The notes beneath the pieces were generated by a model. It was not told the DNA's origin, ran no database searches, and worked only from the letters and a program-made list of their open reading frames with translations. The translations under genes were made by a program, and so were the position numbers. This document shows positions 6,070 through 56,379 of a stretch of 64,000 bases of DNA, piece by piece. Position 1 is the stretch's first letter, and every line of letters starts with the position of its first letter. Source of the stretch: an uncultured Candidatus Saccharibacteria bacterium (lineage in GTDB: Bacteria; Patescibacteriota; Minisyncoccia; Phycocordibacterales; UBA12088); the NCBI GenBank assembly GCA_964411375.1, contig CAYPKR010000002.1:205259-269258 (forward strand). The letters are read 5' to 3'.

Positions 6070-8382
6070 TTATTTCGCGACCGCGACCGCTTCTTCGAAT
6101 TTGACTGACAAGAGTTTTGAAATACCGTCCGAGCCCATAGTAACGCCATAGAGAACGCCGGCGCGGCTCATCGTTTCGCGATTGTGCGTGATGACGATAA
6201 GCTGTGATTTCTTTCCGAGGTTTTCGATCATATCGCCATAGCGACGTGAATTGGCTTCATCAAGCGCCGCATCGGTTTCGTCGAGAATAAGGAATGGCGG
6301 TGGATTGACCTGCGACATTGCAAAAATAAGCGCAATCGAAGTAAGTGCTCGTTCGCCACCGGAGAGCATCGCGAGACCACGGATTCGTTTGTTTGGTAAA
6401 TTGACTGACACATCAACACCTTCTTCAGTATCACTTGGTTCTTCAACTTCCTTTTCATCTCCATCAAGTGAGAGAATATTTGGAGAAATCTTTTTTCGTT
6501 TTTCTTCTTCAACCAATACGAGCTTCGCTGTCCCGCCACCAAACATGAGTTCAAAGAATGTGCCGAATTCCTTCGAGATTTTGTCGATGCCGAGCCCAAA
6601 TTCGATATTTAGTTTATCTTCGAGTTCCACAATGAGGTTGTGGAGCGTTTCGGCAGATTTCTCTAGATCTGCAAGTTCACGCGTCAAAAACAAATCACGT
6701 TCTTTGACCTCCGTGTACTCTTTCATCAAATCATCTGCGGAAGCACCTCCGAGTTCTTCAAGCCGGATCTTCATTTTTTCAAGCGAGCGACGTCGATCTT
6801 CTTGAATGCTTCGCTCCTCTTCAAGCATTTCATGGAGCGGAATCTCGATAGAATGCTTGTCTACTATGCGAATGTTTTTATAGTGCGCCGCTTCAATTCC
6901 GATCAAGGCACTTGCTTCTCGAAGCTCATTTTCAAAGGCGTCCTTGAGGCGAGCGAGATCGTGTCGGCGCATTTCAATCGATTGTAGGATGCTTCGCACT
7001 TCGCTTTGACGGGCCATGATTTCAAAGAGCGCCCGCTCCGATTCACGCCCTTTATCTTTTTTACTTTCAATTTCTGATTTGAGCGCAAGATAGCGTTCTT
7101 CAAGTTTTGCTTCTTCCGCCTCCGCTTCTTTAATCGACGAAGAAATCCTCGCGTGTTTGTCGCGAAGTGAAGAAATCAGTTGTTTGCTTTCATCAATTGA
7201 ATGCCCTGCCCCGTTCGACTTAATATGTGCCATGAAATCGCGAAGACGAGAAAGCATCTTGTCGATAAGGCCATGAATATGCGAGACACTTTCTCCTTTT
7301 TTTGATGCATGGAGCTCACTCTCCAAATCATCCGCAAATGATTCTATCGTGTGAAGCGGCACTGAAACATCTTTTCCTGCTTCTCTCGCCCGCTCTTCTC
7401 TTTCTACACGACGCTCTTCTGAAACAATTTCTCCTTCGAGACGACCAAGATCGCGTGAGAGCGTATCCTTTGCGGTACGTGCATCCCGGAGATCGTTTTC
7501 GATCGACAATACTTCGTCACTTTTTGCGTCATGTGAATCAGATTCTTGGAGAATTCTCTTTGCGTCATCGAGGCGGCGATCGAGCTCTTTCATCTCACTC
7601 TCTGGGGTCGTCGCTTCATTTTGAAGTTTGTCGGACGCGTGGGTAATGTATATTTCCTCGCGCTTTAAATATTCTTGATATGTTGAAACGAGTTCTTCAC
7701 GAAGCAACACTGCTTTTTGAAGCTTCTCAACTTGTCGCTCGAGAAAGCGAAGATGCGGCGCATTTTCTTTCCGCAGCGCTTCTACTTGCTTTCGATTTTC
7801 TTCAGTTTTTTCAAGCTTCTTGATGCTCTCTTCACGCTTGTATTGATAGATGCGGAGCCCCAAAGCATCTTCGATCATTGCTCTGCGCTCTTTTGGGTTT
7901 GCAGAAAGAACGCGATCGGCTTCACCTTGCGAAATAATATGATGTCCTGATGCGCCGATATTCGCTCCAGCAAGAAGCTCAATAACATCGCGAAGACGTA
8001 CCTTGCTTCCATTTATTATGTATTCGTTTTCTCCATCACGATGGACGGCGCGCTCGACTGACACTTCATCAAAATCAATTTGAAGGAGTCTAGCACTCGA
8101 TCCATCAGCTTTTTTGGTAGGACGATTATCAAATACAACTTTGACCGACGCGCGATTCATGCGTGACGTCGATCCAGAACCATTAAAAATAAGATCTTCG
8201 CCACGCTTACCGCGCATCGATTTGATCGATTGTTCGCCAAGCACAAATCGAAATGCTTCTGCCACATTCGATTTACCCGAGCCATTTGGACCAACAATAG
8301 AAGTAATCGCCGAGCTAAATTCTAGATCGGTTTTCTTGGCGAACGATTTAAAGCCGGAGAGCTCGAGACTCTTCAGATACAT
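6070..8382 (-). CDS. smc: SMC-family chromosome-partition ATPase, short (770 aa) with no recognisable hinge
   Basis: It has the N-terminal Walker A (IVGPNGSGKSNVAEAFRFVLGEQS) and a C-terminal LSGGERALTSIALIFAM...LILDETDAALD signature. Only ~430 aa of coiled coil lie between the heads. Confidence 0.7.
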   Translation of the reverse strand: MYLKSLELSGFKSFAKKTDLEFSSAITSIVGPNGSGKSNVAEAFRFVLGEQSIKSMRGKRGEDLIFNGSGSTSRMNRASVKVVFDNRPTKKADGSSARLLQIDFDEVSVERAVHRDGENEYIINGSKVRLRDVIELLAGANIGASGHHIISQGEADRVLSANPKERRAMIEDALGLRIYQYKREESIKKLEKTEENRKQVEALRKENAPHLRFLERQVEKLQKAVLLREELVSTYQEYLKREEIYITHASDKLQNEATTPESEMKELDRRLDDAKRILQESDSHDAKSDEVLSIENDLRDARTAKDTLSRDLGRLEGEIVSEERRVEREERAREAGKDVSVPLHTIESFADDLESELHASKKGESVSHIHGLIDKMLSRLRDFMAHIKSNGAGHSIDESKQLISSLRDKHARISSSIKEAEAEEAKLEERYLALKSEIESKKDKGRESERALFEIMARQSEVRSILQSIEMRRHDLARLKDAFENELREASALIGIEAAHYKNIRIVDKHSIEIPLHEMLEEERSIQEDRRRSLEKMKIRLEELGGASADDLMKEYTEVKERDLFLTRELADLEKSAETLHNLIVELEDKLNIEFGLGIDKISKEFGTFFELMFGGGTAKLVLVEEEKRKKISPNILSLDGDEKEVEEPSDTEEGVDVSVNLPNKRIRGLAMLSGGERALTSIALIFAMSQVNPPPFLILDETDAALDEANSRRYGDMIENLGKKSQLIVITHNRETMSRAGVLYGVTMGSDGISKLLSVKFEEAVAVAK

Positions 8383-8414
8383 GGAAATATTTTAGCATGG
8401 GATATAAAAGTTTG

Positions 8415-8438
8415 AGCGGCGCCTGCTTGCAGGCGCCG
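8415..8438 (-). terminator. Intrinsic terminator GCGGCGCCTGCttgcAGGCGCCGC
   Basis: A perfect 10-bp GC stem, followed on the minus strand by CAAACUUUUAUAU. It closes the small-ORF unit upstream of smc. Confidence 0.55.
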
Positions 8439-8449
8439 CTGATTCGTCA

Positions 8450-8641
8450 CTACCCCCGATATTGTATCGAGTAGGTGCGTTCTAGAGCTCTTCGAACTGG
8501 ATCGCCGCGCCCCGGCCCCTTACGAGGCTTTATTCGGCCTGGTGGGCGAGGTGGCAAAGCACTTTTCCGCGCTTCAAGCGGTCTGTTACACCAATTGATA
8601 TCAACTTCCCGCAGAAGTGGTTTTTTTGAGCCGGAGTGCAT
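8450..8641 (-). CDS. Small basic Pro/Arg/Gly-rich protein (63 aa), second of two small ORFs with Shine-Dalgarno sequences
   Basis: GGAGAGGG lies 6-7 nt upstream of the ATG, its stop is 8 nt before the terminator, and it sits in a GC-rich island. I could not identify the product, and an ncRNA is the alternative. Confidence 0.3.
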   Translation of the reverse strand: MHSGSKKPLLREVDINWCNRPLEARKSALPPRPPGRIKPRKGPGRGDPVRRALERTYSIQYRG

Positions 8642-8653
8642 GGTTTCCCTCTC

Positions 8654-8845
8654 CTATTTCTGAGAAAGTGAGGAGAGAAAACGAGCTTGCTCTTCTCCAA
8701 CCCTTGGTGAGTTAGGAATGAAATTAAGATGATACTTTCCGAAATCAGCGATTGCTTGCGGACTCCAGTTAGATGACTGGACGGGCACCAATAGAAAACC
8801 GCCCTTAGGCGCACGCTGTTGTAGATATCCAATTGTGACTAGCAA
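8654..8845 (-). CDS. Small hypothetical protein (63 aa, TTG start), first of two small ORFs with Shine-Dalgarno sequences
   Basis: AGGAGGGG lies 6 nt upstream of a TTG start, and its stop overlaps the SD of the next ORF. Confidence 0.25.
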   Translation of the reverse strand: MLVTIGYLQQRAPKGGFLLVPVQSSNWSPQAIADFGKYHLNFIPNSPRVGEEQARFLSSLSQK

Positions 8846-8940
8846 GTACAGCCCCTCCTGTTAGGAACGAGGACCACCACGGTCTAACGCCGAAACATAT
8901 CATGCAAATTGTCAAAACGCAATTCCGTTTTCAACATTAA

Positions 8941-9639
8941 CTACCACCCTTTTTTCGAGAGTGCGTTTCGGGCTGCCATTTGTTCTGCTTCTTGTTTTGA
9001 TTTTCCAGTTCCGTCCGCAATCATTTCTGCGCCAAGGAAAACGCCAACGGTGAAATGCTTGTCGTGATCCGGTCCCGACTCGCTCATGATCTTATAGGTT
9101 GGCGTCATCGAAACACGCTCCTGTGCTTCTTCTTGGAAATGGCTTTTATCGTCCTGCCAGAGTTTTTTTGCGACGATGTCATCGGTGAGTGGAAAAATAT
9201 TTTGTGCGATAAAGTCAGCCGCAACATCATACCCTTGATCGAGATAGATAGCCCCAACTACCGATTCAAAAGTGTTTGCCAAAATATATTGACGTGCTCG
9301 GCCAGTATCTTTTGCTTCACCACGCGAGAGCAGGAGGTAATCATTCATACCAAGCGAGAGTGCAACATTCGAAATAGTATTGGTATTTACCAGTGCCGCG
9401 CGATACGCAGTGAGTTCCCCTTCGTTATCATTTGGAAATCGTTCAAAAAGATAGCGCGTCACGACCAATTCCAAAACTGCGTCTCCCAAAAATTCGAGAC
9501 GCTCATTGTGGAGCAATTTTTCTTCGCGGTGCTCATTGAGATACGAGCGATGCGTGAACGCTTGTTCCAAGAGTGCGATATTTGTAAATTGAACTCCGAT
9601 TTTTTCTGCAAACTTAGCGACTTCGTTTTTCGAGGTCAT
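8941..9639 (-). CDS. rnc: Ribonuclease III
   Basis: ERLEFLGDAVLELVVTRYLF catalytic motif, with a dsRBD at the C-terminus. Confidence 0.9.
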   Translation of the reverse strand: MTSKNEVAKFAEKIGVQFTNIALLEQAFTHRSYLNEHREEKLLHNERLEFLGDAVLELVVTRYLFERFPNDNEGELTAYRAALVNTNTISNVALSLGMNDYLLLSRGEAKDTGRARQYILANTFESVVGAIYLDQGYDVAADFIAQNIFPLTDDIVAKKLWQDDKSHFQEEAQERVSMTPTYKIMSESGPDHDKHFTVGVFLGAEMIADGTGKSKQEAEQMAARNALSKKGW

Positions 9640-9797
9640 GACAGTAGATCTGAATTAGTAGTATGTATGGTTTTCAGAATGTTTCTAAAAATTTCAGATG
9701 CGCGGCGCGGAGAAAGAAAATTTGGAGACGTACCAAGGTACGGCGGAAAATTTTCAGAGGCTCCGGAACAAAACAGATGAATTTTTTAGGAACATTC

Positions 9798-10715
9798 TCA
9801 TTGCTTTTGCAAGAGAAGATTGATGGCCTTGGTGATTATAGGAAGTATGTCGCGGTAGAAGTTGAGATCAAGGATCGATGAGAGCTTAAACCAACGTGCA
9901 TCATCGAGTCCTCCTTTTTCTTCGAGCGTGATATCCGAAAATTCAGATTCCGCGAGGAAGTAGATGACACGCTTACGTTTCTTTCCTTCATCAGGAGTGG
10001 TTGCGACGTATTCGTTCTCGCCGAGTTTTTCTTTGACGGTAATGTCGAGTCCGATTTCTTCTTTAATTTCTCGAACAACACCCGCTTCTTCGCTTATACC
10101 GTCTTCGATGCCGCCTTTTGGAAGCGTCCAGTGACCGAACACGTCATGCACGAGTGCAACATAGACTTCTTCGCCTTCGCGAGCAAATACGACCGCGCCG
10201 ACTTTTCGTTCGAGTGGCAGTTTATCGTACGGAACATCCTGCTTCTTTTTTTTCTTTGAGGTCTCTTCTTTGCCGGGTTCACCGAGTTCTTTGTAGACTG
10301 CGCCGAGTACGCCGTTAACGAATCGGCCGGAAGACTCTCCGCCAAAATTTTTGCCAAGCTCAATCGCTTCATTGATTGCGACTTTTGCCGGAACCTCTTT
10401 GCGATCAGCAAAGAGAAGCTCGAATAGTCCGAGCCGGAGAATATTGCGATCAACCGGAGCGATTTTACCAATCGGCCATTCCGGTGCCGCTTTTTCAATT
10501 ATTTGATCGAGATCATCTTTCTTCTGCATGACACCATGCAGGAGTTTGTCCATGTATGAAAAATCACTCGTTCCTGGAGCGAATTCATCAATGTTGCGCG
10601 CAAGCACCTTTTCGACATCAATACCCCCATCACCGTTTTTCTCGGTGACATCCCATTCAAAGAGCGTTTGGAGGACTATTGACCTCGACAGATGTCTATT
10701 CGCCATTGTGTACAA
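9798..10715 (-). CDS. nusB: NusB antitermination factor fused to a C-terminal NUDIX hydrolase domain
   Basis: Residues 1-150 are NusB (ILRLGLFELLF, AINEAIELGKNFGGESSGRFVNGVLG). A Lys-rich linker follows. Residues 175-305 carry a Nudix box, GGIEDGISEEAGVVREIKEEIGL. Both lie in a single uninterrupted frame. Confidence 0.8.
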   Translation of the reverse strand: MYTMANRHLSRSIVLQTLFEWDVTEKNGDGGIDVEKVLARNIDEFAPGTSDFSYMDKLLHGVMQKKDDLDQIIEKAAPEWPIGKIAPVDRNILRLGLFELLFADRKEVPAKVAINEAIELGKNFGGESSGRFVNGVLGAVYKELGEPGKEETSKKKKKQDVPYDKLPLERKVGAVVFAREGEEVYVALVHDVFGHWTLPKGGIEDGISEEAGVVREIKEEIGLDITVKEKLGENEYVATTPDEGKKRKRVIYFLAESEFSDITLEEKGGLDDARWFKLSSILDLNFYRDILPIITKAINLLLQKQ

Positions 10716-10770
10716 AGACGGCTAACCTCACTTCCTATGTCAATCAACGTGGCGCGACGTTCGCGCCCGA

Positions 10771-10971
10771 TTACTTCTTCTTCGCAGAAACTTTGCGTTT
10801 TGCTACGTCAATCACCTGTCGGCCGCGGTACATACCGCAACTTGGACAAACTGCGTGGCGCACCATAGACGCACCGCAATGCGGGCATTTGGTAAGCGTG
10901 CTTGAGGCGAGCCGATGATGGCTCCGGGTTGCCCCGACCTTTGCACGAGTGCGCTTCATTCGGACTGACAT
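10771..10971 (-). CDS. rpmF: 50S ribosomal protein L32
   Basis: A 66-aa protein with MSVRMKRTRAKVGATRSHH...CPHCG...CPSCG, the bL32 zinc-ribbon type. Confidence 0.85.
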   Translation of the reverse strand: MSVRMKRTRAKVGATRSHHRLASSTLTKCPHCGASMVRHAVCPSCGMYRGRQVIDVAKRKVSAKKK

Positions 10972-11038
10972 ATGTGTACCCTAGCAAAAATGGCTTAAAA
11001 ATACAAGAAACAAGCGGCAGACTGTGCATAAAAGATAA

Positions 11039-11070
11039 TGGCGCCGACACGGATTGAACGTGTTCGGCGC
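11039..11070 (-). terminator. Intrinsic terminator GGCGCCGAACACG-UUCAAUC-CGUGUCGGCGCC followed by AUUAUCUUUUAU
   Basis: A 12-bp GC stem with a 7-nt loop that resembles a tRNA T-loop, followed by a U-run on the minus strand. Confidence 0.55.
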
Positions 11071-11075
11071 CTCCC

Positions 11076-11390
11076 TAACCGACGACTTATGTGTCGCCAA
11101 CTTTCTTAAATCGATCCGGGCAATCTGCACGCGGCATATATCTGAAACCGTTGGCGAACCGACAAAATATTTGCGGCTGATGGGAATGACCACCTGCTCC
11201 TGCGATACCCTCGTAATGAGGACAACCGGTACATTTTGGGGGAGCTAGTGGTGCGCTTGGTCTGTAGAAAAGCGAGCTCTCTGATGGAACGAGGGCCAGG
11301 AACCGCCCCGTTAGTTGTCTCGGCATCTGAGGTGACCTGATTCTAAGGTAAGTGTCCAAAATAACCCTACCACTCCAATTGACTTAGTCA
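11076..11390 (-). ncRNA. Candidate structured sRNA, or alternatively a small Cys/His-rich ORF, between the rnhB stop and a strong terminator
   Basis: About 315 nt of GC-rich sequence, transcribed, with no ORF that looks convincing by SD. ORF 11087..11359 has a CxxC...HxH...C...C pattern but a poor RBS. No RNase P, tmRNA or SRP signature motifs were found. Confidence 0.2.
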
Positions 11391-11391
11391 A

Positions 11392-12006
11392 CTAGAGAAA
11401 TGAACTCCGGTGAATATTGAGGTGACCATGCTTTTTCAAATTCCGATAATGCTCTTTGGTGCCATATCCCTTATGCTTTTCAAAACCGTATTCGGGATAT
11501 TTTTCTCCAAGCCTTACCATGTGTCGGTCGCGGGTCACTTTTGCCGCAATCGACGCGAGCGAGATAACCGGCACCAATTCATCGCCCTTAATAATCGTTT
11601 CCTGGTGGGTAAAATGTCGTGGCGCGTACAGTGAACCATCGAGAAGTACGAGAATTGATCCTGGATCGATATCTTCGGTAAGTTCACGAAGATTTCGCGC
11701 CATTGCTGTTTTGACTGCACTTACAATCCCGCGCGAATCGATATGCGAAGCCCCGACTAGGGACACCGCAACATGAATGCTCGGATGTTCCTTCATTTTT
11801 ACAAACCATTCTTCGCGGCGCTCCGAAGATAGTTGTTTGGAATCTCGAATACCCACAAAAAAACCGGCATCAAAATCCGCCGGAATCATAACGGTACCAA
11901 CTGATACCGGACCCGCAATAGGTCCGCGACCTGCTTCATCAATACCAATTATCCAATCGAAATTCTTTGCAATGTCTTGCGTATTCTTCCAAGCGGAGTC
12001 AAGCAT
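11392..12006 (-). CDS. rnhB: Ribonuclease HII
   Basis: IIGIDEAGRGPIAGPVSVG catalytic N-terminus and a KHKGYGTKEHYRNLKKHG C-terminus. I trimmed the start to Met 20 aa before IGIDEAGRG. Confidence 0.85.
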   Translation of the reverse strand: MLDSAWKNTQDIAKNFDWIIGIDEAGRGPIAGPVSVGTVMIPADFDAGFFVGIRDSKQLSSERREEWFVKMKEHPSIHVAVSLVGASHIDSRGIVSAVKTAMARNLRELTEDIDPGSILVLLDGSLYAPRHFTHQETIIKGDELVPVISLASIAAKVTRDRHMVRLGEKYPEYGFEKHKGYGTKEHYRNLKKHGHLNIHRSSFL

Positions 12007-12030
12007 TTCTCTCTGATATACTGGCGGGTA

Positions 12031-15000
12031 ATGAATCGCTTCGTCCATCTTCACACACACAGTCATTATAGCCTTTTGAATGCTTTGCCAAAAATCCCTG
12101 ATTTGGTCGGAGCGGCAAAGGAGGATGGAATGGAAGCACTTGCTCTCACAGACGCCGGCAACCTCTACGGCGCCATCGAATTTTATAAGGAATGCAAAGA
12201 GCAAGGCATTCATCCAATAATCGGAATCGACGCGTATGTTGCGGCGCGTACCCGTCAAGACAAGGAACCAGGTGTCGACAATCGACGCGCGCGACTGATT
12301 CTTCTTGCGAAAAATCTCGAAGGATATCGAAATCTTTTGAAGCTCGTCACTGATTCGGGACTTGAAGGCTTTTATTACAAACCGCGTGTCGATCGCGAAC
12401 TACTTGAAAAATATCAAGAAGGTTTGATCGCGATTCCAACTTCATTTAGTGGCGAGATCGCGAATGCGCTCCGCATGAGTGATTTCGCAAAAGCGAAAGA
12501 AATATATGAATGGTACAAAAAGACATTTGGAGGTGAAAATGTATTTCTCGAAGTAACGCATCATCCAGAAATCGATGGACATGAAAGTCTCCAAGAAAAA
12601 ATAATTGCATTTGCTAAAGAGAATGGAGCAGAGATCGTTGCCGCACACGATGTGTACTATTTGAAACCTGAAGACCGACGTGCGAGAGAGACGATGGTAA
12701 AAATCCAATCGGGCGGCACGCTCGCCGAAGAAGGTCAGAGCGGTTTTGATGATGCCGAAGAAGATTTTTCATTCATCGATCAGGAAAAAGCGGCAAAATT
12801 ATTTTCAAAAACACCCGAAGCACTCGAGAATACGTTGAAAATCGCATCGATGTGCACGCTTGAACTGCCGCTCGGCAAATGGGCGTTCCCTATTCCACAA
12901 ATTGAAAGCGGCAGAACGCCGGACGAAGAACTTCGCTTCCTTGCCTATGAAGGAATCAAAACGCGTGGACTCACTCCGACAACCGAAATAAAAGAGCGAC
13001 TCGAACACGAGCTCGGTATCATCAAACAAAAAGGATATGCAAGTTATTTTATTGTGGTCGCCGATCTCTTACGCTTTGCACACGAACACGACATATATAC
13101 GAACATTCGAGGTTCGGTCGCCGGCTCACTGGTGACGTATTTAACAGGTGTTACCAAGGTAAATCCGCTTGAATATAAAATTCCGTTCGAGCGATTTTTG
13201 AATCCCGAGCGCCCCACTGCTCCGGACATCGACATGGACTTCGCTGACAACCGTCGCGATGAAGTTATTGAATATGCCAAAAATAAATACGGCGCAGACA
13301 AAGTGTCCCAGATCGGTACATTTGGAACCATGATGGCGAGAGCGGCGGTGCGCGATGTCGCACGCGCACTCGGACATCCATATGCCGTTGGAGACCGGAT
13401 CGCAAAACTCATTCCAATTGGTTCGCAAGGATTTCCAATGACCCTTACTCATGCGCTTGAAATAGAGCCGGAACTTTTGAAACTCTATAAAGGCGACAAG
13501 GACGCGAAGGAAGTAATCGAACTGTCGAAAAAAATTGAAGGATGCGCGCGGCATGTGGGAGTTCATGCAGCGGGTGTTGTCATTTCACCGACGCCTTTGA
13601 CTGATTACACACCGCTTCAACTCGATCCAAAAGGCGGTAAGATCATCACGCAGTACGACATGTACTCAATTGATGAAAATAATGCAGGACTTCTTAAGTT
13701 CGACTTCCTGGGGATCAAAAATCTTTCGATTCTTGCCGATTCGGTGAAGCGGGTACAAAAAATCCGCAACATTGATATTGATATCGAAAAAATTCCCCTC
13801 GATGATCCAAAAACATTTGAAATTCTCTCGCAGGGAGAAACGATGGGTTTGTTTCAGTTGAATGGCTCCGGCATGACACGGTTTTTGAAGGAACTAAAAC
13901 CAACCACTATCCACGACATCAACGCGATGGTTGCGCTCTATCGTCCAGGACCTTTGGAATCCATTCCGCAATATATTGAGCGCAAGCACACACCGTCTCT
14001 TATTACCTATCTCGATCCGCGTCTCAAAAATATTCTTGATCAATCGTACGGAGTTATCACCTACCAAGACGACGTGCTTATGGTCGCGGTTGAGATCGGC
14101 GGATATTCCTGGCTTGAAGTCGACAAACTTCGCAAAGCCATGGGAAAGAAAATTCCAGCAGAAATGGAAGCGCAAAAAGAGAAGTTGATCAAAGGATTTA
14201 TTGAGCATGGAAAATTAACCAAAGAAAAAGCGGAGCGAATGTGGAAACTCATCGAGCCGTTTGCCGCGTATGGATTCAACAAAGCGCATGCCGCAAGCTA
14301 CGGTCGTGTTGCGTATCAAACGGCGTACATGAAGGCAAATTTCCCCGTTGAATACATGGCATGTGTTCTGACTGCCGACTCCGGCGATGTTGAGAAAGTC
14401 TCTGAAATCATCACCGAAGTAAAGCGCATGCATATTCAAGTTCTGCCGCCAGATGTAAACGAAAGTTACGGCGTATTTTCGGTCGTTCCTGAGGAATCAA
14501 AAATTCGCTTCGGATTATACTCAATCAAAAACTTTGGCGAAGGAATTGCAGATGTGATTATTGAAGAGCGAAAAAATAATGGGCCATATGAGTCGCTCGC
14601 AGACTTTTTGACACGCATTCAGGACAAAAACCTCAATAAAAAATCACTCGAAGCACTCATTATGGCGGGAGCACTAGACCAGTTTGGCGAGCGCGGATCA
14701 ATGATGGCGAATATTGAAAATCTTCAGCTCTTCAATAAAGAAGCATCGTCAAACGGACATCAGGATTCCTTGTTTGGCGGACTGTCTGGTGGCATTTCTG
14801 AACTTCGCCTTGCGCCGGCAGATCCCGCAACGCAGGCACAAAAATTGCAATGGGAGAAAGAACTTCTTGGTCTCTATATTTCAGGACACCCACTTGATAA
14901 CTACAAAGAAAAGTTAGCGAATCGAGGCAAAACAATTACCGATATAAAACGAACAACCTACGAAGGAGTAGAAACGGTCGTTGGCGGCATTATTGAAGAT

Positions 15001-15210
15001 TTGCGAGTCGTTCTCACCAAAAAGGGCGATAAGATGGCATTCGCAAAAGTCGCTGATATGTCGGGGTCAATCGAAGTGGTCTTTTTCCCAAAGTTATATG
15101 CGGAAAAATCGACAATGGCTGTTCCCGAGGCGTGCATTGCAGTCAAAGGAAAATTTTCTATGCGAAATGGCGAACCATCAATCGTCGCTGATGCAGTAAA
15201 AGCGCTCTAA
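12031..15210 (+). CDS. dnaE: DNA polymerase III alpha subunit
   Basis: A PHP domain (FVHLHTHSHYSLL), the polymerase core and a C-terminal OB fold. I trimmed to MNRFVHLH; it is divergent from rnhB. Confidence 0.9.
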   Translation: MNRFVHLHTHSHYSLLNALPKIPDLVGAAKEDGMEALALTDAGNLYGAIEFYKECKEQGIHPIIGIDAYVAARTRQDKEPGVDNRRARLILLAKNLEGYRNLLKLVTDSGLEGFYYKPRVDRELLEKYQEGLIAIPTSFSGEIANALRMSDFAKAKEIYEWYKKTFGGENVFLEVTHHPEIDGHESLQEKIIAFAKENGAEIVAAHDVYYLKPEDRRARETMVKIQSGGTLAEEGQSGFDDAEEDFSFIDQEKAAKLFSKTPEALENTLKIASMCTLELPLGKWAFPIPQIESGRTPDEELRFLAYEGIKTRGLTPTTEIKERLEHELGIIKQKGYASYFIVVADLLRFAHEHDIYTNIRGSVAGSLVTYLTGVTKVNPLEYKIPFERFLNPERPTAPDIDMDFADNRRDEVIEYAKNKYGADKVSQIGTFGTMMARAAVRDVARALGHPYAVGDRIAKLIPIGSQGFPMTLTHALEIEPELLKLYKGDKDAKEVIELSKKIEGCARHVGVHAAGVVISPTPLTDYTPLQLDPKGGKIITQYDMYSIDENNAGLLKFDFLGIKNLSILADSVKRVQKIRNIDIDIEKIPLDDPKTFEILSQGETMGLFQLNGSGMTRFLKELKPTTIHDINAMVALYRPGPLESIPQYIERKHTPSLITYLDPRLKNILDQSYGVITYQDDVLMVAVEIGGYSWLEVDKLRKAMGKKIPAEMEAQKEKLIKGFIEHGKLTKEKAERMWKLIEPFAAYGFNKAHAASYGRVAYQTAYMKANFPVEYMACVLTADSGDVEKVSEIITEVKRMHIQVLPPDVNESYGVFSVVPEESKIRFGLYSIKNFGEGIADVIIEERKNNGPYESLADFLTRIQDKNLNKKSLEALIMAGALDQFGERGSMMANIENLQLFNKEASSNGHQDSLFGGLSGGISELRLAPADPATQAQKLQWEKELLGLYISGHPLDNYKEKLANRGKTITDIKRTTYEGVETVVGGIIEDLRVVLTKKGDKMAFAKVADMSGSIEVVFFPKLYAEKSTMAVPEACIAVKGKFSMRNGEPSIVADAVKAL

Positions 15211-31579: not shown

Positions 31580-32008
31580 TTACTTCGATTGATGTTCTAA
31601 GTATGCCATAGCGTCAGTCAAAACCGTTCGATCTTCTGGAAAGGTAATTTGGGTTTTTGCCGATTCAAACGGCAACCAAAGTGCATTCTTGACCTCACTT
31701 GCTTGGAGCGTGAGTGGTGGATCGTTTTCAATTCTTCCGAGAAAATATCCGACGAATTTGTGGATAACTCCATTTTTACGGGTTAGATCGTATTCCGTTT
31801 CAAAGATTTTTTCAGTGTCGACCGTAATGTCGGTAATGCCGACTTCTTCCATCAGTTCTCGGAGCGCCGTTTCTACATTAGTTTCACTTCCCTCCGGATG
31901 ACCTTTGGGAAAAGTGAAATGACCAGCATGATGTTCGATAAGAAAAAATTCGTACTGCCCTTCGATTAAACGGTACGGGAGTATTCCAAAACTATGTTCA
32001 ACCTCCAT
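31580..32008 (-). CDS. NUDIX hydrolase
   Basis: Nudix box GHPEGSETNVETALRELMEEVGI. Its ATG shares its A with the CCA end of tRNA-Thr. Confidence 0.8.
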   Translation of the reverse strand: MEVEHSFGILPYRLIEGQYEFFLIEHHAGHFTFPKGHPEGSETNVETALRELMEEVGITDITVDTEKIFETEYDLTRKNGVIHKFVGYFLGRIENDPPLTLQASEVKNALWLPFESAKTQITFPEDRTVLTDAMAYLEHQSK

Positions 32009-32083
32009 GGAGCCGGAAGTCGGGCTTGAACCGACGACCTACGGTTTACAAAACCGTTGCTCTACCAACTGAGCTATTCCGGC
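32008..32083 (-). tRNA. tRNA-Thr (anticodon UGU), with CCA encoded
   Basis: Acceptor GCCGGAA/UUCCGGC, D arm GCUC-AGUUGGU-AGAGC, anticodon arm ACGGU-UUUGUAA-ACCGU, T arm GUCGG-UUCAAGC-CCGAC, discriminator U, then CCA. Confidence 0.85.
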
Positions 32084-47023: not shown

Positions 47024-50000
47024 CTACGGAATACTATCGGGGGCAGTAATCCAACAGTTGAGACCGGCGCAGTTGCGTAATTGACCTAATCTTGTCGCTA
47101 GATCTGCTTGTACCGATGTATATGCCGGTGTTCCCGCTTTATTTAGAAGCTCATATGGATCAATCAGCAAGTCATATAATTCTTTCTGGTTGTTATCATG
47201 TTCAACATATGTGTATCGTGTCGTACGCACCGCATCAAATCCAGGAGTGCCTGGAATGAGTGGATCATAATCGAGCGTCCCGTCCATTCGTACTGCGGTG
47301 CGCCATGTCGGATCTGCACCTTCGAGGAGCGGTACCAGGGAGCGACCATCGAATGTGACTGTCTGGTGCGCATCTGCGATATCAACAATTGTTGGAGCGA
47401 TATCAACATCACTGACTAGTTTTGTATTGACGGCATGAACGACTCCTGGCCCTCGTACAACAAGGGGAAGCCGGATAGATTCTTCAAAGAACGACTCTTT
47501 ACCTGAAGCTATCCGATGCTCACCTGCATACCACCCGTTATCCGAAAGATACAGAATATATGTATTGCTGAGCTTGCCGATTGACTGCAGCTTTTGTATG
47601 AGGCTTTCGACACCATCGTCGACCGACATAAGAGAAGCGAGGCGCTTGCGATACTTTTGGGTAATTGCGGCAATTTGAACCGTAGTAAGGAGTGGTTGGT
47701 TTGAGGTGATAAATGCAGGCTTATCTGACATATCGGCCTCATTAAAATTAGGCAATCGCGGCAATGGTTCGCTTGAAAATGCGGCCATGTATCGCGGTGC
47801 GGGAATTGGATCGGTTGTTGGAGTGTTGGTTAAATCATCGTGAGGTGCCAAATAGGCCAGCTGTATATAGAATGGCGATGTGGTATTCCTTTGAGACTCG
47901 AGGAAATTCAATACCTTGGCAGTAAGTACGTCAGTCATGTACTCACTAGGATTTGACCCATAATTGCGTATAGTGCCGTTCTCATTAATTGCATAGTTGT
48001 AGTAGGAATGAATAAGGTGATCGCCTGAACGTGGCACGCCATTCCATTCATCCCAGCCAGGCGGTACGTGTGATGCAGGATAATCATCTGCACCTCCATA
48101 GAAGTTGAAATATTTCCCGTAAAACGCATTTGTATATCCCACATTTTTCAGCCATACCGGCAGGGCTTTACTCTCGCGGAATCCAGTTGCGAGTGAAGCA
48201 GGTGGTGGTGACTGCTTGGTTATGCCGTGGTTTTGGGCATACATTCCGGTAAGGAGTGTCGTGCGCGCTGGACAACAAAGCGAAAGATTGTCTATGTAGT
48301 TAGTGAATTGAACGCCTTGATCTACGAGCAAGGATTTAACCTTGGGCATTTTTGATAAGCTGGCATAGTCTTGGTCATCCGTTACGATCAGCACGATATT
48401 CGGCTTTGTAGTTGCTAAACCTTTTGTAAACACTGCTGAAGCGATCGCGCTTGGAGTAAGACCTGTCTTCCATGCTCCGACTTTTATGGTCTTAGTATCG
48501 GTTAGAGTAATGGGCGCCGTATAGACGGCACTTGCTTCGGTCGGGGTACTGCCATCGAGTGTATAGTGCATGGTTGCGTCAGCGGTTGTTACTGAAAGAG
48601 TAACGGTCTGCGAGGCGGTGAATGTCCCGCCTGCAGGAGATATTGTAGGGGTGGCCACAATAGTCGGCTCACCGGTTGTTCCGCCGACTGTACCACCAAC
48701 CGTTCCTCCGGTTGTTCCGGTAGTGAAGAATCCAGTCACGACGCCACCGCCGCCAATCGGATTAATGATCGCTTGGAGTTGCCAAAAGTTTGTTGCGCAA
48801 AAAGAGTCGCGGCAGCCGCATTTCCATGCGCCGCCGACAAAGGTACACGAGTATGCTGCAAAGAACGTATAAAAAGATGGCGAGCGAAGATCGGCATTTT
48901 CGATAGTGGTGTGCGCGCCGACAAGCAGCCAATTCCCTCCCGTTCCTGGAGCGGGAGTTCCGGTAAATGTAATTGGCACCCATGCGGCACCAGTCCATCT
49001 GAATCCATTTTTATAGACATATTTTTGGGTGGCGGTGTCGGGAGTCTCAAAACTAAATGTCGCATCTCCCGCTGTATTGCACGCAAAATTAAGCAGCGTT
49101 TCTTTCGCTCCACCGAATACGTTGTACGCGGCGCCATATCCCGACGGAATAGTAGCGGCGTTGGTATACCGTTCAGTGCATCCGTACGACGGAACAGTGA
49201 ATGTGGTTCCGACCGTAGCGCCGCCGGAAGTCACGCCAGTAGCAACCCCCCCCGTCGTCCCCACTCCCGTCCCCGTCGTAACAGTACCCGCAGTACCAAC
49301 GGTTCCATGTCCATCACCTCTCCACAGGGTTTTGTATACCGCGATAGGATCTTGCCCTGATTCGTTTGCCGGCCATGCGGAATAAATACTGCCGTCTCCT
49401 TGGTCGAAGTAATCTTCGTGATCAAGAATATCTTGGTTCGCATTAAAGAATGCGTAGGTGAAGCGGATGACGTCCGCCGGATGTGTGGAAGCGGCGGCGC
49501 CTTCGCGGCGCGGCGCCCATTCGGGAAATACCATTCGAACTCCTTGCGCTCTCGCGAATGCCACAATTTCGTTGAATCCCCAGAATCCTGCATTGCCTGC
49601 AAGGATTTGGTTCCAGTTGTTTCCTGGCGCTGTTGCTGATTCCCCCTGCACTCGCACCATCGAGCTGTCATGCCACGATGCGCCGACAAAATCGATTTGT
49701 TTCCCGATGGGGCCAGGAGGAAGCACCGTGATTCCGTTGATGATTCGAGTACCAGGGCTCCAACTGGCAACATTGTTTGGCCAGAGTTGTTCGTGGCGAA
49801 TGGTGCTGCCCCCACCACGACGATCGGAATTGATGAACTGGAGTTGTGGACGGAATGCGAAATAGTAATTTGGATATTGTCCGCGCTGATATTTGTATCC
49901 TTCTTTAAATACGCGGATCCATCTCGCCCATGCATATGGAAAATCCTGATACGTGAAATGCTTTCCGGTTGCGTCAGTATATGAGCCTTCAGGAGATTTG

Positions 50001-50623
50001 CCGTGCGTCTCGAGCGTAAATTCATAGAACCAGTCCATGGTCATTGGAAACGCCGGATCGCCGTCGCGCTGATCGAGGTATGCGAACTTTCGTCCGAGGA
50101 GAAAGAGGTATTTGTCCGCGTCCCCGTTTTTGATATCCCGATAGATTGTCGGGTTCGCGTATGTGGAGCCAGTCCATCGATTGCCGAGTGTTGAAGGAAT
50201 TGGTTCTGCCCAGTCGAGATGAATGATGCGCTTTCGGTGCACGGTTGCGGGATAGTCGCCCCAAATGTGGCGGAACCATCCTTCGTCCTGGAACACGCCG
50301 TGGAAAAGCGGCGGATCCGCGTTCCATGCTGCGGGAGTGCGGTTGAAATCGCGATCCGTTTCGGCTTCGCTGTCGGCGCCGCCAACATTCGGCCATGTGA
50401 CGACATCTCCCATTCCTTGGGTCACTGAATCTGGTTCGTGACCCATGAGATCGATGTAGTTCTGCATATGATCAGAGCTGCCGTTGATCCAGCTACCGGC
50501 ATTCCATGGCATGCCGCTTTTGCCGACGTGTCCAGAAAAGACAGCCGCGTATACTGGCTTTCCAATGATACCCGCAACAAAGACAAGGATGCCCAAAAGA
50601 AGCGGGATGGCGAAGAATTTCAT
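47024..50623 (-). CDS. Secreted multidomain protein: GH-like N-domain, shared 6-Cys module, Fn3/CHB_HEX_C-like domain, C-terminal sulfatase
   Basis: A signal peptide MKFFAIPLLLGILVFVAG. The sulfatase carries the formylglycine motif SLCCPARTTLLTG and DDQDY. The shared module matches CTERY...YGAAYNVF...WKCGCRDSFC. Confidence 0.8.
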   Translation of the reverse strand: MKFFAIPLLLGILVFVAGIIGKPVYAAVFSGHVGKSGMPWNAGSWINGSSDHMQNYIDLMGHEPDSVTQGMGDVVTWPNVGGADSEAETDRDFNRTPAAWNADPPLFHGVFQDEGWFRHIWGDYPATVHRKRIIHLDWAEPIPSTLGNRWTGSTYANPTIYRDIKNGDADKYLFLLGRKFAYLDQRDGDPAFPMTMDWFYEFTLETHGKSPEGSYTDATGKHFTYQDFPYAWARWIRVFKEGYKYQRGQYPNYYFAFRPQLQFINSDRRGGGSTIRHEQLWPNNVASWSPGTRIINGITVLPPGPIGKQIDFVGASWHDSSMVRVQGESATAPGNNWNQILAGNAGFWGFNEIVAFARAQGVRMVFPEWAPRREGAAASTHPADVIRFTYAFFNANQDILDHEDYFDQGDGSIYSAWPANESGQDPIAVYKTLWRGDGHGTVGTAGTVTTGTGVGTTGGVATGVTSGGATVGTTFTVPSYGCTERYTNAATIPSGYGAAYNVFGGAKETLLNFACNTAGDATFSFETPDTATQKYVYKNGFRWTGAAWVPITFTGTPAPGTGGNWLLVGAHTTIENADLRSPSFYTFFAAYSCTFVGGAWKCGCRDSFCATNFWQLQAIINPIGGGGVVTGFFTTGTTGGTVGGTVGGTTGEPTIVATPTISPAGGTFTASQTVTLSVTTADATMHYTLDGSTPTEASAVYTAPITLTDTKTIKVGAWKTGLTPSAIASAVFTKGLATTKPNIVLIVTDDQDYASLSKMPKVKSLLVDQGVQFTNYIDNLSLCCPARTTLLTGMYAQNHGITKQSPPPASLATGFRESKALPVWLKNVGYTNAFYGKYFNFYGGADDYPASHVPPGWDEWNGVPRSGDHLIHSYYNYAINENGTIRNYGSNPSEYMTDVLTAKVLNFLESQRNTTSPFYIQLAYLAPHDDLTNTPTTDPIPAPRYMAAFSSEPLPRLPNFNEADMSDKPAFITSNQPLLTTVQIAAITQKYRKRLASLMSVDDGVESLIQKLQSIGKLSNTYILYLSDNGWYAGEHRIASGKESFFEESIRLPLVVRGPGVVHAVNTKLVSDVDIAPTIVDIADAHQTVTFDGRSLVPLLEGADPTWRTAVRMDGTLDYDPLIPGTPGFDAVRTTRYTYVEHDNNQKELYDLLIDPYELLNKAGTPAYTSVQADLATRLGQLRNCAGLNCWITAPDSIP

Positions 50624-50681
50624 GCATATATATTGTACCGCCTAGTGGTTCGAGGCGGTGGGAGGTGGTGTGGATTTAATT
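49247..50681. repeat. Copy 1 of a perfect 1,435-bp direct repeat (copy 2 at 57697..59131)
   Basis: The antisense ORFs 49231..50025 and 57681..58475, and others, are identical (offset 8,450 bp). The repeat covers the 5' 1.4 kb of two paralogous genes plus ~58 bp upstream. Confidence 0.85.
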
Positions 50682-50700
50682 CATTCAGACTTAACGCTAT

Positions 50701-53700: not shown

Positions 53701-53793
53701 TAATAATGCCCTGCCCCCGCTAAACCATTCGGTAACTCCTAGAAAACCAGCGACAAGGAATGTGGCAATGCCGAAAAAACGGAAGATCGTCAT
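50701..53793 (-). CDS. Secreted multidomain protein: GH-like TIM-barrel N-domain, shared 6-Cys module, C-terminal parallel beta-helix (lyase-like)
   Basis: A signal peptide. WATEVGY looks like a catalytic Glu. The shared module reads CHERF...YGAAYNVF...WNCGCRDTFC. PbH1-like repeats (NNFEG, GNTVKN, NNIVISN) form the beta-helix. Confidence 0.7.
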   Translation of the reverse strand: MTIFRFFGIATFLVAGFLGVTEWFSGGRALLILTPQVSGAVVPAIMSDLAADEVGVNVHLDYTDTIYGMHYDDIVKPRLIESGIRHIRDNGGGGIPSTALRAKWKDLRTNNGITLLYQGYHGADDLAVIRDLNATINVVDGIEPPNERDIHDTGWQTNQRNYIKDMYPRVKADAITRNIPYLGASFAHTSNSPGIFQSTFTDAANYMDVGNSHDYPAGLYPEGPGGGGWGITDVRALDLNRYGSAKPVWATEVGYRKFPDDPGHRAVSERAAAKYFPREFLWHLTHNSPRVYIYQLVDNGQSDELGIINHDGSVRQQFTAIKNYINLFKDPGAPFTTSGLDYTLSGDTANVQQLLLQKRNGVFYLVLWQAVSSSNGPADIEPARKAVTVHFNSRVTAVHTYEPSFNANVIQTVTNDAGITTMDVQIPDYLLVLEINGTGAPIGTGTTATTGTGTTGTTGGTGTGGTVTGGVGSAASIGFEPCHERFDNNTITPAKYGAAYNVFSGAKELLLNLSCDGPGSDVSFSINTPDTSTPKYVYKNGYRWNGGSWVPFTFEGIPVPGSGGNWLRMGATTTIRNADLRPSPAYTFFAAYTCTFANSSWNCGCRDTFCTVHFWQLQATQNPNGGFFFSTGGGTPGGGTVGGTTGGGTSGPEPACTGSNCYPWPPEETPGCVDIIPTSPRAPITVNNATELSQALLGANAGDLILVGDNTYLGNFSINRTGTKSQPIVIRALNRLSPVFMGEFTVGGTCVILEGMKFQGGTGINVTGTHDRVSRNLFINTTDRNAINISRTCEYCRIDRNEIGNYSTQGIGFDTNTTDGARNTLVDRNYVHDRQAGPGGNLEECIQVGQTYSNSAQGMLAVIELNLVTNNLFTDDCISIKSSRNIIRGNTVKNVKGGIVLRNGSNNIVISNFIRQSTGAIVGQGANQRVIGNNFEGDRMEVLARDPGDTVSQTPEQSINWLMAGNRGTIIIGKGDGGGPVVKDGRIEAHVGAVNYIPGHYTNVQEFPTTAETWIPAVELNVSQVGPNSI

Positions 53794-56375: not shown

Positions 56376-56379
56376 ATGT

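What the first reader, a model, noticed from the sequence alone, without database searches (positions are those of the whole stretch)
9798..10715. Single-polypeptide NusB-NUDIX fusion
One uninterrupted 305-codon frame encodes a complete NusB (aa 1-150), a Lys-rich linker and a complete Nudix hydrolase with an intact catalytic box (GGIEDGISEEAGVVREIKEEIGL). NusB nucleates the antitermination complex on nascent rRNA or mRNA. Nudix enzymes of the RppH/NudC type remove 5' pyrophosphate or NAD caps.

A covalent fusion would place a 5'-end-processing activity on the transcription antitermination complex, and I am not aware of that being described. A second stand-alone Nudix gene sits at 31580-32008.
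Basis: partly seen in the sequence, partly recalled or inferred. Interest (0 to 1): 0.55.

Follow-up and report, generated by a model that had tools for sequence, protein, structure and literature searches.

The report
NusB fused to an Ap4A-type Nudix domain
A whole class of tiny uncultivated bacteria (Paceibacteria) makes its rRNA-transcription factor NusB as one polypeptide with a nucleotide-polyphosphate-binding Nudix domain whose closest studied relative strips protecting groups from RNA 5' ends, which suggests, without proving, built-in 5'-end handling on nascent rRNA.

Summary
The fusion is real. One minus-strand ORF (9798-10706, 302 aa from the conserved ATG) encodes a complete NusB, a disordered basic linker of about 20 residues, and a complete Nudix fold.

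It is not an artefact:
- NusB and Nudix share one frame in 79 of 80 species-representative genomes; the exception is cut by a contig end.
- At least 588 genomes carry it.
- The order L32 - fusion - RNase III is conserved down to 35% identity.

The Nudix half is not RppH or NudC type. It belongs to the Ap4A-hydrolase clade. Its closest solved relative is Aquifex aq_158, shown in 2026 to remove triphosphates and many caps from RNA 5' ends.

The box is not fully intact. The Gx5E glutamate is Ile204, but both direct metal ligands (E213, E217) are present. Across 253 fusions, 102 have lost a metal ligand, yet the adenine/phosphate pocket residues stay 92-97% conserved.

So ligand or 5'-end binding is the conserved function, and hydrolysis is retained in only part of the family, probably including this protein.

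I found no published description; databases call it "NusB". I rate it a new domain architecture of known parts, of moderate interest, with the function still to be tested biochemically.

The parts
9798..10706 (-). nusB::nudix coding sequence (302 aa plus TGA stop). The mechanical ORF extends to a TTG at 10715.
   Evidence: ORF list; conserved MANRH start in all homologs; translation check.
10278..10706 (-). NusB domain (aa 1-143), all-helical.
   Evidence: Pfam PF01029 1.6e-33. TIGR01951 scores 123.8 bits, above the 88.35 cutoff. The model matches T. maritima NusB 1tzt with TM 0.84.
10218..10277 (-). Basic Lys-rich linker (aa 144-163, PGKEETSKKKKKQDVPYDKL).
   Evidence: pLDDT is below 50 for residues 144-154 and pTM is 0.59. 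Across the family the linker has median length 18, is net positive in 83% of sequences, and has a K+R fraction of 0.31.
9801..10217 (-). Nudix-fold domain of the Ap4A-hydrolase (aq_158 / NUDT2 / CT771 / Ndx1) type (aa 164-302).
   Evidence: Pfam PF00293 2e-16. The family profile hits 3i7u at 7.8e-23. Foldseek gives 3i7u TM 0.91 and rmsd 1.8 A.
10047..10115 (-). Nudix box GGIEDGISEEAGVVREIKEEIGL (aa 198-220). Ile204 (10095-10097) replaces the Gx5E Glu. E213 and E217 (10056-10058) are the direct metal ligands.
   Evidence: aq_158 E51A, which corresponds to E217, is inactive. The RE-Glu and the second Glu of EE are the metal ligands in NudB.
10771..10971 (-). rpmF (ribosomal protein L32), conserved upstream neighbour.
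   Evidence: Pfam Ribosomal_L32p 1e-14. It lies upstream of the fusion in 75 of 80 loci and in the divergent L081.
8941..9639 (-). rnc (RNase III), conserved immediate downstream neighbour.
   Evidence: Pfam Ribonucleas_3_3 4e-40 plus dsrm. It lies downstream in 80 of 80 loci with a median spacing of about 28 nt.
6070..8382 (-). smc, which usually follows rnc.
   Evidence: Pfam SMC_N 1.3e-64. Present after rnc in 65 of 80 loci.
31580..32008 (-). Stand-alone paralogous Ap4A-hydrolase-type Nudix with a fully canonical box (KGHPEGSETNVETALRELMEEVGI).
   Evidence: Best PDB match is CT771 at 2.5e-14. It is 34% identical to the fused half. The box is canonical in 7 of 7 homologs.

Best explanation
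This is the NusB of a Paceibacteria (Parcubacteria, candidate phyla radiation) genome. It is permanently fused, through a flexible basic linker of about 20 residues, to a Nudix domain descended from the Ap4A-hydrolase / aq_158 clade.

Shown:
- Both domains are complete and well folded.
- The fusion is fixed across the lineage.
- It always sits between rpmF and rnc.
- The adenine-stacking and phosphate-binding residues of the Nudix pocket are under stronger constraint than the catalytic glutamates.

Inferred:
- The NusB half does its usual job with S10 on the boxA element of the nascent pre-rRNA leader.
- The tethered Nudix domain then captures a nucleotide-polyphosphate group at high local concentration. 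The most likely target is the 5'-terminal triphosphate or an Np4/NAD-type cap of that same nascent transcript.
- In proteins that keep both metal ligands, as this one does with E213 and E217, the domain probably hydrolyses that group to a 5' monophosphate, as aq_158 does. That would license 5'-monophosphate-dependent trimming or decay of the leader released by the neighbouring gene product, RNase III.
- In the roughly 40% of orthologs that have lost a metal ligand, the domain probably only binds, and so holds, protects or senses the 5' end.
For: Fusion and synteny:
- One ORF carries both domains above curated thresholds.
- All 120 closest database proteins carry both Pfam domains.
- About 59 full-length fusion representatives exist at 50% clustering, down to 32% identity.
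- At least 588 species-representative genomes carry the Nudix half. In 79 of 80 fetched loci NusB is in the same frame, and in 80 of 80 rnc follows.
- The same synteny holds in a fusion only 35% identical.
- The Nudix half is as conserved as the NusB half among close relatives: 72% against 73%.

Classification of the Nudix half:
- The closest solved relative is aq_158: profile E=7.8e-23 and fold TM 0.91.
- aq_158 removes 5'-PPP, 5'-PP, m7G, NAD, FAD, Np4 and sugar caps from RNA, and its E51A mutant is dead. E51 maps to E217 here.
- Mammalian Nudt2, in the same clade, removes Np4 and FAD caps.

Pocket versus catalytic residues:
- Pocket residues documented for Ap4A hydrolases map to H192, K197, Y233, K245, Y284 and D286.
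- These stay 92-97% conserved even in the 102 fusions that lack a metal ligand, against a background mean of 0.54.

Link to rRNA processing:
- The NusB-rnc functional link is established genetically in E. coli (PMC4807359).
Against: - No biochemical data exist for any member of this family.
- The Gx5E Glu is Ile in this protein.
- 40% of orthologs lack a direct metal ligand and only 27% have a fully canonical box. Hydrolysis is therefore dispensable for whatever maintains the fusion.
- A conserved adenine pocket fits a free ligand such as Ap4A or ATP as well as it fits an RNA 5' end.
- I could not show that these genomes have boxA leaders. I could not show that this is their only NusB, beyond finding no second copy in the 64-kb window. 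I could not show that they encode a 5'-monophosphate-dependent RNase.
- The structure model gives no fixed inter-domain geometry (pTM 0.59).
Confidence: 0.4

Rival explanations
1. Ligand sensor. The Nudix domain is a regulatory module that binds a free adenine dinucleotide or polyphosphate alarmone such as Ap4A, and it tunes NusB-dependent rRNA transcription or maturation to stress or charging status. This would resemble the non-catalytic Nudix domains of the transcription regulators NrtR and AraR. Residual hydrolysis, where present, would reset the signal.
For: - The catalytic box is degenerate in 102 of 253 fusions while the adenine-stacking and P1-phosphate residues stay 92-97% conserved.
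- NrtR and AraR Nudix domains appear among the fold and profile matches.
- The same genome keeps a separate canonical Ap4A-type hydrolase that could do the housekeeping hydrolysis.
Against: - The window's own clade keeps E217 in 171 of 172 sequences and the R + RE-Glu + EE2 core in 133 of 172. That level is not expected for a pure sensor.
- No allosteric route is evident across a disordered linker.
- The stand-alone paralog is rare, with only 7 homologs, so it cannot be the general partner.
Confidence: 0.22
2. Structural subunit. The Nudix domain has been recruited as a protein-protein or RNA-contact piece of the rRNA transcription/maturation complex. The analogy is the inositol-monophosphatase-fold protein SuhB, which joins the E. 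coli complex in a NusB-dependent way and whose enzymatic activity is not its main role.
For: - The SuhB precedent is documented (PMC4807359).
- Catalytic residues are dispensable in many orthologs.
- Family-specific invariant motifs lie outside the box: D188, GGLDD at residues 265-269, and LNFYxDxLP.
Against: - The residues that stay conserved in the most divergent members are the ones that line the nucleotide pocket in Ap4A hydrolases. That points to ligand binding rather than a new protein interface.
- No partner was identified.
Confidence: 0.13
3. Two independent jobs on one chain. An ordinary NusB and an ordinary Ap4A/NpnN housekeeping hydrolase were fused by loss of a stop codon between adjacent operon genes. 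The fusion was kept because it is harmless or ensures co-expression, with no mechanistic coupling.
For: - The flexible linker and the low pTM indicate independent domains.
- Small-genome lineages accumulate such fusions (general knowledge).
- A single in-frame stop can separate the halves in one relative, L083.
Against: - The fusion is retained across at least 588 species and down to 32% identity, and no verified split form was found.
- A housekeeping hydrolase would not be expected to lose metal ligands in 40% of lineages while its pocket stays conserved.
- The nearest unfused NusB relative has no adjacent Nudix gene that could mark a neutral precursor state.
Confidence: 0.15
4. Artefact. A frameshift, a missed stop codon or a chimeric assembly has joined two separate genes.
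For: None found. The A-rich linker (a run of Lys codons) is the kind of place where homopolymer errors could occur.
Against: - The same single frame appears in 79 of 80 independent genomes, and in hundreds of independently assembled proteins from NCBI, JGI, ENA and Logan.
- The linker length varies in multiples of codons.
Confidence: 0.01

Closest known systems
Aquifex aeolicus aq_158, the Ap4A/Ap5A/Ap6A hydrolase renamed 'Omnivore RNA pyrophosphatase' (PDB 3I7U/3I7V)
   Same: - It is the best sequence-profile match (7.8e-23) and the best fold match (TM 0.91, rmsd 1.8 A) for the Nudix half.
- It shares the W-x-x-P-K-G motif, the loop-5 Tyr, the K-x-V-x-Y strand and the C-terminal aromatic.
- The residue whose mutation kills aq_158 (E51) is present here as E217.
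   Different: - aq_158 is a free-standing 134-aa enzyme with a fully canonical box.
- Here the domain is fused to NusB, has Ile at the Gx5E position, and shares only about 26% identity.
- Many orthologs lack metal ligands.
- Activity is untested.
NusB (E. coli, T. maritima, A. aeolicus), the boxA-binding partner of S10 in the rRNA antitermination/maturation complex
   Same: - Full-length match to the equivalog model, above its cutoff.
- Matches to NusB chains at 1e-14 to 6e-19, including those in the 6TQN/6TQO complexes.
- Fold TM 0.84.
- Conserved N-terminal Arg-rich segment and the VPxKVAINEAIELAK...FVNGVL motifs.
   Different: It carries a C-terminal linker plus a Nudix domain. S10 and boxA binding are not tested. 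The gene neighbourhood (rpmF upstream, rnc downstream) is lineage-specific.
RsmB/Sun 16S rRNA m5C967 methyltransferase
   Same: It is a precedent for a NusB-like RNA-binding domain fused to an enzyme that acts on rRNA. RsmB models match the NusB half weakly (57 bits).
   Different: The partner domain there is a SAM methyltransferase, not a Nudix domain. The RsmB models fall far below their cutoffs (57 against 319). Here the NusB half is a true NusB equivalog.
SuhB in the E. coli rRNA antitermination complex
   Same: It is an enzyme-fold protein (a small-molecule phosphatase) that works together with NusB on nascent rRNA and whose catalytic activity is not its main function. Like nusB, it is genetically linked to rnc.
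   Different: It has a different fold (IMPase), is a separate polypeptide, and shares no homology.
NrtR / AraR Nudix-domain transcription regulators
   Same: Their Nudix fold has a degenerate catalytic box and is used to bind a nucleotide ligand and control gene expression. They appear among the matches.
   Different: They pair the Nudix domain with a winged-helix DNA-binding domain and act at promoters. Here the partner is an RNA-binding elongation factor, and the clade of origin is Ap4A hydrolase, not ADP-ribose pyrophosphatase.
RppH and NudC
   Same: They share the Nudix superfamily and, possibly, action on RNA 5' ends.
   Different: All RppH and NudC models score far below their cutoffs. 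There is no NudC zinc or N-terminal domain.

Membership tests
NusB (TIGR01951 / PF01029) | Full-length match to the curated equivalog model above its trusted cutoff. | tested here: met
   TIGR01951 scores 123.8 bits against a cutoff of 88.35, covering model positions 2-130 of 131. Pfam NusB scores 116.4 bits against 23.1.
NusB (TIGR01951 / PF01029) | All-helical two-subdomain NusB fold. | tested here: met
   The AF2 model has seven helices over residues 4-141 with pLDDT above 90. Foldseek matches 1tzt at TM 0.84 and 1eyv at 0.80.
NusB (TIGR01951 / PF01029) | Binds S10 (NusE) and boxA RNA, and is the organism's only NusB. | not testable with these tools
   There is no second NusB in the 64-kb window. 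The whole genome, the rRNA leaders and binding could not be examined.
Nudix superfamily (PF00293) | Nudix alpha/beta/alpha fold and a Pfam match above the gathering score. | tested here: met
   PF00293 scores 60.6 bits against 21.1. Fold matches to many Nudix structures have probability 1.00.
Nudix superfamily (PF00293) | Complete Nudix box Gx5Ex7REUxEExGU. | tested here: not met
   Ile204 replaces the Gx5E Glu, while the other seven positions fit. Only 69 of 253 family members have all four Glu plus Arg.
Nudix superfamily (PF00293) | Direct metal-ligand glutamates (the RE-Glu and the second Glu of EE) are present. | tested here: met
   E213 and E217 are present in the window protein. Their roles follow NudB and aq_158 E51A. 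In the family, 102 of 253 lack one of them.
Ap4A-hydrolase-type Nudix clade (aq_158, NUDT2, CT771, Ndx1) | Closest sequence and structure relatives lie in this clade. | tested here: met
   Profile hits: 3i7u 7.8e-23, 4ilq 5.5e-17, 1vc8 9.5e-16, 3u53 6.8e-13, 1kt9 9.2e-13. Foldseek ranks 3i7u first.
Ap4A-hydrolase-type Nudix clade (aq_158, NUDT2, CT771, Ndx1) | P1-phosphate site (His, Lys, Tyr, Lys) and the adenine sandwich (loop-5 Tyr plus a second aromatic). | tested here: met
   The residues are as described in PMC4734340. They map to H192, K197, Y233, K245 and Y284, plus D286, and are 86-100% conserved.
Ap4A-hydrolase-type Nudix clade (aq_158, NUDT2, CT771, Ndx1) | Hydrolyses ApnA and/or RNA 5' protecting groups. 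| not testable with these tools
   This needs an enzyme assay.
RppH (E. coli-type RNA pyrophosphohydrolase) | Match to the RppH equivalog models above their cutoffs. | tested here: not met
   The best RppH model, NF001936, scores 34 bits against a cutoff of 118. The others score 19-28 bits against cutoffs of 116-259.
NudC (NAD-cap decapping / NADH pyrophosphatase) | Match to the NudC model above its cutoff, plus the zinc-binding N-terminal region. | tested here: not met
   NF001299 scores 22.4 bits against a cutoff of 158. No additional domain lies between the linker and the Nudix fold.
RsmB/Sun | NusB-like N-terminal domain followed by a SAM-dependent m5C methyltransferase domain. | tested here: not met
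   RsmB models match only the NusB half (57 bits against a cutoff of 319). There is no methyltransferase domain.

The most novel reading that the evidence does not exclude
Paceibacteria may have a built-in reader, and in many species a remover, of the RNA 5' end on their rRNA transcription/maturation complex. NusB would carry a domain that recognises the 5'-triphosphate or an alarmone-derived Np4A-type cap of the nascent pre-rRNA. This would couple the chemical state of the transcript's 5' end to antitermination, folding and RNase III processing. It would be a bacterial counterpart to the recruitment of 5'-end enzymes by the elongating eukaryotic polymerase.
Probability: 0.2. Interest if true: 0.8.

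Novelty: new variant of a known kind. Interest (0 to 1): 0.55.

Why it matters
NusB is a core, nearly universal bacterial factor, and no enzymatic or ligand-binding appendage on it has been described in the papers I could search. Here an entire class of the candidate phyla radiation has fixed one: hundreds of species, with identity down to about 32%.

The appendage's nearest characterised relative is the most promiscuous RNA 5'-end deprotecting enzyme known.

If the domain acts on or reads the 5' end of nascent rRNA, that would be the first case of co-transcriptional 5'-end handling wired into the bacterial Nus machinery. It would also bear on how organisms that must salvage nucleotides dispose of rRNA leaders.

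The family is also a clean natural series running from enzyme to pseudoenzyme with the pocket preserved, which is useful for separating binding from catalysis.

In practical terms, thousands of database entries named only 'NusB' hide a second domain, and Pfam no longer detects it in divergent members.

Tried and rejected
- Frameshift or assembly artefact: rejected.
- Natural split forms. Short Nudix-only and NusB-only representatives were inspected. The one traced to its contig, L083, is a single in-frame TAA at the invariant Tyr138 codon with the frame otherwise intact. Others begin at internal Met or mid-motif and look like truncated gene calls. No genuine split architecture was verified.
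- RppH or NudC classification: rejected on NCBIfam scores.
- The stand-alone paralog as a matched control for box conservation. It has only 7 homologs. All 7 are canonical, but the sample is too small to carry weight.
- The search for related loci with the divergent Nudix-half alignment failed because it had no conserved stretch. A closer alignment worked.
- Promoter and terminator scan of 8300-11400: nothing above the shuffled expectation.
- Rfam on the whole window and, at permissive threshold, on the 8350-8960 gap: only tRNA-Thr elsewhere in the window, and nothing in the gap.
- The CT771 structure paper is not held in the library. The P. falciparum / human Ap4A hydrolase paper was used instead.
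It reproduces the published residue numbers K42, Y82, K89, F128 and E130 and the E58A mutant position.
Full report
**1. What is in the sequence**

An uninterrupted ORF lies on the minus strand at 9798-10715, 305 codons from a TTG. Every homolog begins MANRH or MSNRH, so the real start is almost certainly the ATG at 10706, giving 302 aa. The stop is TGA at 9798-9800.

- Pfam places NusB at residues 10-142 (E=1.6e-33) and NUDIX at 169-285 (E=2e-16).
- The NCBIfam nusB equivalog model TIGR01951 scores 123.8 bits against a cutoff of 88.35, over essentially its full length.
- Between the domains lies PGKEETSKKKKKQDVPYDKL.

An AlphaFold2 model built on 75 fusion sequences is confident for both domains: mean pLDDT 91.3, with seven helices followed by a Nudix alpha/beta/alpha sandwich. 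Residues 144-154 fall below pLDDT 50 and pTM is only 0.59. This describes two independent domains on a flexible tether.

**2. The fusion is not an artefact and not a one-off**

- All 120 best hits among 5.8 billion clustered proteins are about 300 aa and carry both Pfam domains. Where they are named at all, they are called 'NusB' from Patescibacteria, Parcubacteria or Paceibacteria.
- An exhaustive search of 50%-identity representatives found 156 proteins at E<=1e-30. About 59 of these are full-length fusions, with identity down to 32%.
- In the 80 loci fetched, NusB lies in the same open frame in 79. The exception is cut by a contig end.
- RNase III follows in 80 of 80 loci, L32 precedes in 75, and SMC follows rnc in 65.
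- The spacing between the fusion and rnc has a median of about 28 nt.
- A fusion only 35% identical, in which Pfam no longer sees the Nudix domain, still sits between L32 and RNase III.
- The only apparent split form I could trace, L083, is a single in-frame TAA at the invariant Tyr138 codon.
- The nearest unfused NusB relative keeps L32 upstream but has neither a Nudix gene nor rnc next to it.
- Locus titles name Kaiser-, Adler-, Taylor-, Nomura-, Campbell- and Yonathbacteria, Paceibacterota and Minisyncoccia. Many third-party assemblies are labelled 'uncultured Candidatus Saccharibacteria', which I could not verify.

**3. What kind of Nudix domain it is**

It is not RppH or NudC. Those models score 19-34 bits against cutoffs of 116-259.

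A profile of the Nudix half finds, in order:
- Aquifex aeolicus Ap4A hydrolase aq_158 (3I7U, 7.8e-23)
- Chlamydia CT771
- Thermus Ndx1
- human NUDT2
- C. elegans Ap4A hydrolase

Foldseek also ranks 3I7U first, with TM 0.91 on the target and rmsd 1.8 A.

This matters because Ingle and Belasco (NAR 2026, PMC13145063) showed that aq_158 converts 5' triphosphates and diphosphates to a 5' monophosphate on RNA. It does the same for m7G, NAD, FAD, Np4 and sugar caps. They also showed that E51A abolishes activity. The same paper notes that mammalian Nudt2 removes Np4 and FAD caps.

**4. Is the catalytic box intact?**

Not strictly. By alignment:

| Window residue | aq_158 | Human NUDT2 | Note |
|---|---|---|---|
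| G198 | G32 | G43 | fits |
| I204 | E38 | E49 | Gx5E Glu lost |
| R212 | R46 | R57 | fits |
| E213 | E47 | E58 | E58A mutant crystallised as 4IJX |
| E216 | E50 | E61 | fits |
| E217 | E51 | E62 | aq_158 E51A is dead |

In NudB the direct metal ligands within the motif are the RE-Glu and the second Glu of EE (PMC5526541), and both are present here. Ile204 is shared with close relatives, so it is not an error.

I therefore consider hydrolytic activity of this particular protein plausible but unproven.

**5. The family-wide pattern**

I assembled 253 distinct full-length fusions and binned them by identity to the window protein.

| Identity bin | n | R + RE-Glu + EE2 core kept | Fully canonical (all four Glu plus Arg) |
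|---|---|---|---|
| >=65% | 172 | 133 | 54 |
| 50-65% | 32 | 10 | 10 |
| 40-50% | 27 | 3 | 3 |
| <40% | 22 | 3 | 2 |

- The RE-Glu is replaced by K, V, A, I, G, N, S and other residues, which implies many independent losses.
- In total 102 of 253 lack a direct metal ligand.
- The residues that bind substrate in Ap4A hydrolases are described in PMC4734340. His, Lys, Tyr and Lys hold the P1 phosphate. A loop-5 Tyr and a second aromatic sandwich the adenine. An acidic residue contacts its amino group.
- These map to H192, K197, Y233, K245, Y284 and D286.
- In the 102 ligand-less fusions the pocket residues are kept, counting conservative substitutions, at 96% (K197), 97% (Y233), 93% (K245), 96% (Y284) and 92% (D286). 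The background mean is 54% and the 90th percentile is 86%.
- In the 43 most divergent ligand-less fusions the pocket residues remain at 81-93%, against a background mean of 34%. R212 falls to 42%.
- Among close relatives the Nudix half is as conserved as the NusB half, 72% against 73%.

The conserved function of the domain is therefore binding of a nucleotide-polyphosphate group. Hydrolysis is an option that part of the family has kept.

**6. A paralog in the same window**

The stand-alone Nudix at 31580-32008 (minus strand) is also of the Ap4A-hydrolase type (CT771, 2.5e-14). It is 34% identical to the fused half. Its box is fully canonical in all 7 homologs found.

It is rare, so it is only a weak control. 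It does show that this genome has a separate conventional enzyme of the same clade.

**7. Mechanism**

Shown: the anatomy, the synteny and the conservation pattern.

Inferred from established knowledge:
- NusB with S10 binds boxA in the pre-rRNA leader and tethers it to the elongating polymerase.
- nusB and rnc are genetically linked in E. coli, because this looping promotes formation of the stem that RNase III cleaves (PMC4807359).

Inference: a basic, disordered linker of about 20 residues (net positive in 83% of family members) lets the Nudix pocket reach the 5' end of the same nascent leader. There it would bind the terminal nucleotide-(poly)phosphate or a non-canonical cap.
- In members with both metal ligands, including this one, it would convert that group to a monophosphate as aq_158 does. 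That would prepare the leader for 5'-monophosphate-dependent nucleases after RNase III cleavage.
- In ligand-less members it would only hold or read the end.

I put this at about 0.4.

Rivals:
- a free-alarmone (Ap4A) sensor in the manner of NrtR, 0.22;
- a SuhB-like structural subunit, 0.13;
- two uncoupled jobs on one chain, 0.15;
- an artefact, about 0.01.

**8. Comparison with what is known, and novelty**

Both halves belong to known families. Precedents exist for each idea separately:
- a NusB-like domain targeting an rRNA enzyme (RsmB);
- an enzyme fold moonlighting in the Nus complex (SuhB);
- non-catalytic Nudix domains in transcription regulators (NrtR, AraR).

The combination of a true NusB with an aq_158-like Nudix domain is not described in any of the papers that contain the relevant terms, and databases label it simply NusB. 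I rate it a new variant (architecture) of known kinds. Interest is moderate at 0.55, because the function is untested but directly testable.

**9. Limits**

- No whole genome, rRNA leader or read-level data could be examined.
- Residue mapping to human NUDT2 used a sequence recalled from memory, which reproduces the published numbering.

Noticed in passing
window 8383-8940: A 558-bp stretch between smc and rnc has no convincing ORF, no Rfam match even at E<=1, and no nucleotide similarity in the 80 related loci. The rnc-smc spacing in relatives is very variable: median 291 nt, 90th percentile about 1.4 kb.
   Followed up: partly
window 32008-32083 and 31580-32008 (minus strand): tRNA-Thr(TGT) ends exactly where the start codon of the stand-alone canonical Ap4A-type Nudix gene begins, on the same strand. 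This suggests a tRNA-Nudix co-transcript.
   Followed up: no
window 47024-62622 (minus strand): A tandem cluster of large, apparently secreted proteins carries sulfatase, chondroitinase-B-like beta-helix, GDSL-lipase and LamG domains. The proteins at 47024-50623 and 56380-59073 share an identical N-terminal module of about 460 aa (88% identity over 623 aa) with different C-termini, which points to a recent duplication or domain shuffling.
   Followed up: partly
window 11392-12258 (-) and 11977-15210 (+): The mechanical RNase HII ORF and the dnaE ORF overlap head-to-head by about 280 nt. The RNase HII Pfam match starts only at residue 104, so its true start is probably internal and the two genes are divergent neighbours.
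   Followed up: no
L083 542-1459: One relative (a 2.4-kb NCBI contig) has a TAA in place of the invariant Tyr138 codon of the fusion, so gene callers report separate NusB and NUDIX genes. This is either a sequencing error or a recent nonsense mutation.
   Followed up: yes
P0223 (142 aa): A Nudix-only protein has a MutT-like N-terminal half with a canonical box, while its C-terminal half is typical of the fusion family (GENEYVA...GGLDDARWF...LNFYEDMLP). It could be a recombinant or a chimeric assembly.
   Followed up: no
L081 5001-5900 (P0179): In divergent fusions, around 35% identity, the precomputed Pfam annotation lists only NusB. The degenerate Nudix half is invisible to the standard model, so domain-architecture censuses will undercount this fusion.
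   Followed up: partly
loci L001-L080: Many third-party-assembled genomes that carry the Paceibacteria-type fusion and synteny are titled 'uncultured Candidatus Saccharibacteria'. Either the label is generic or wrong, or the fusion extends beyond Paceibacteria. This is not resolved.
   Followed up: no
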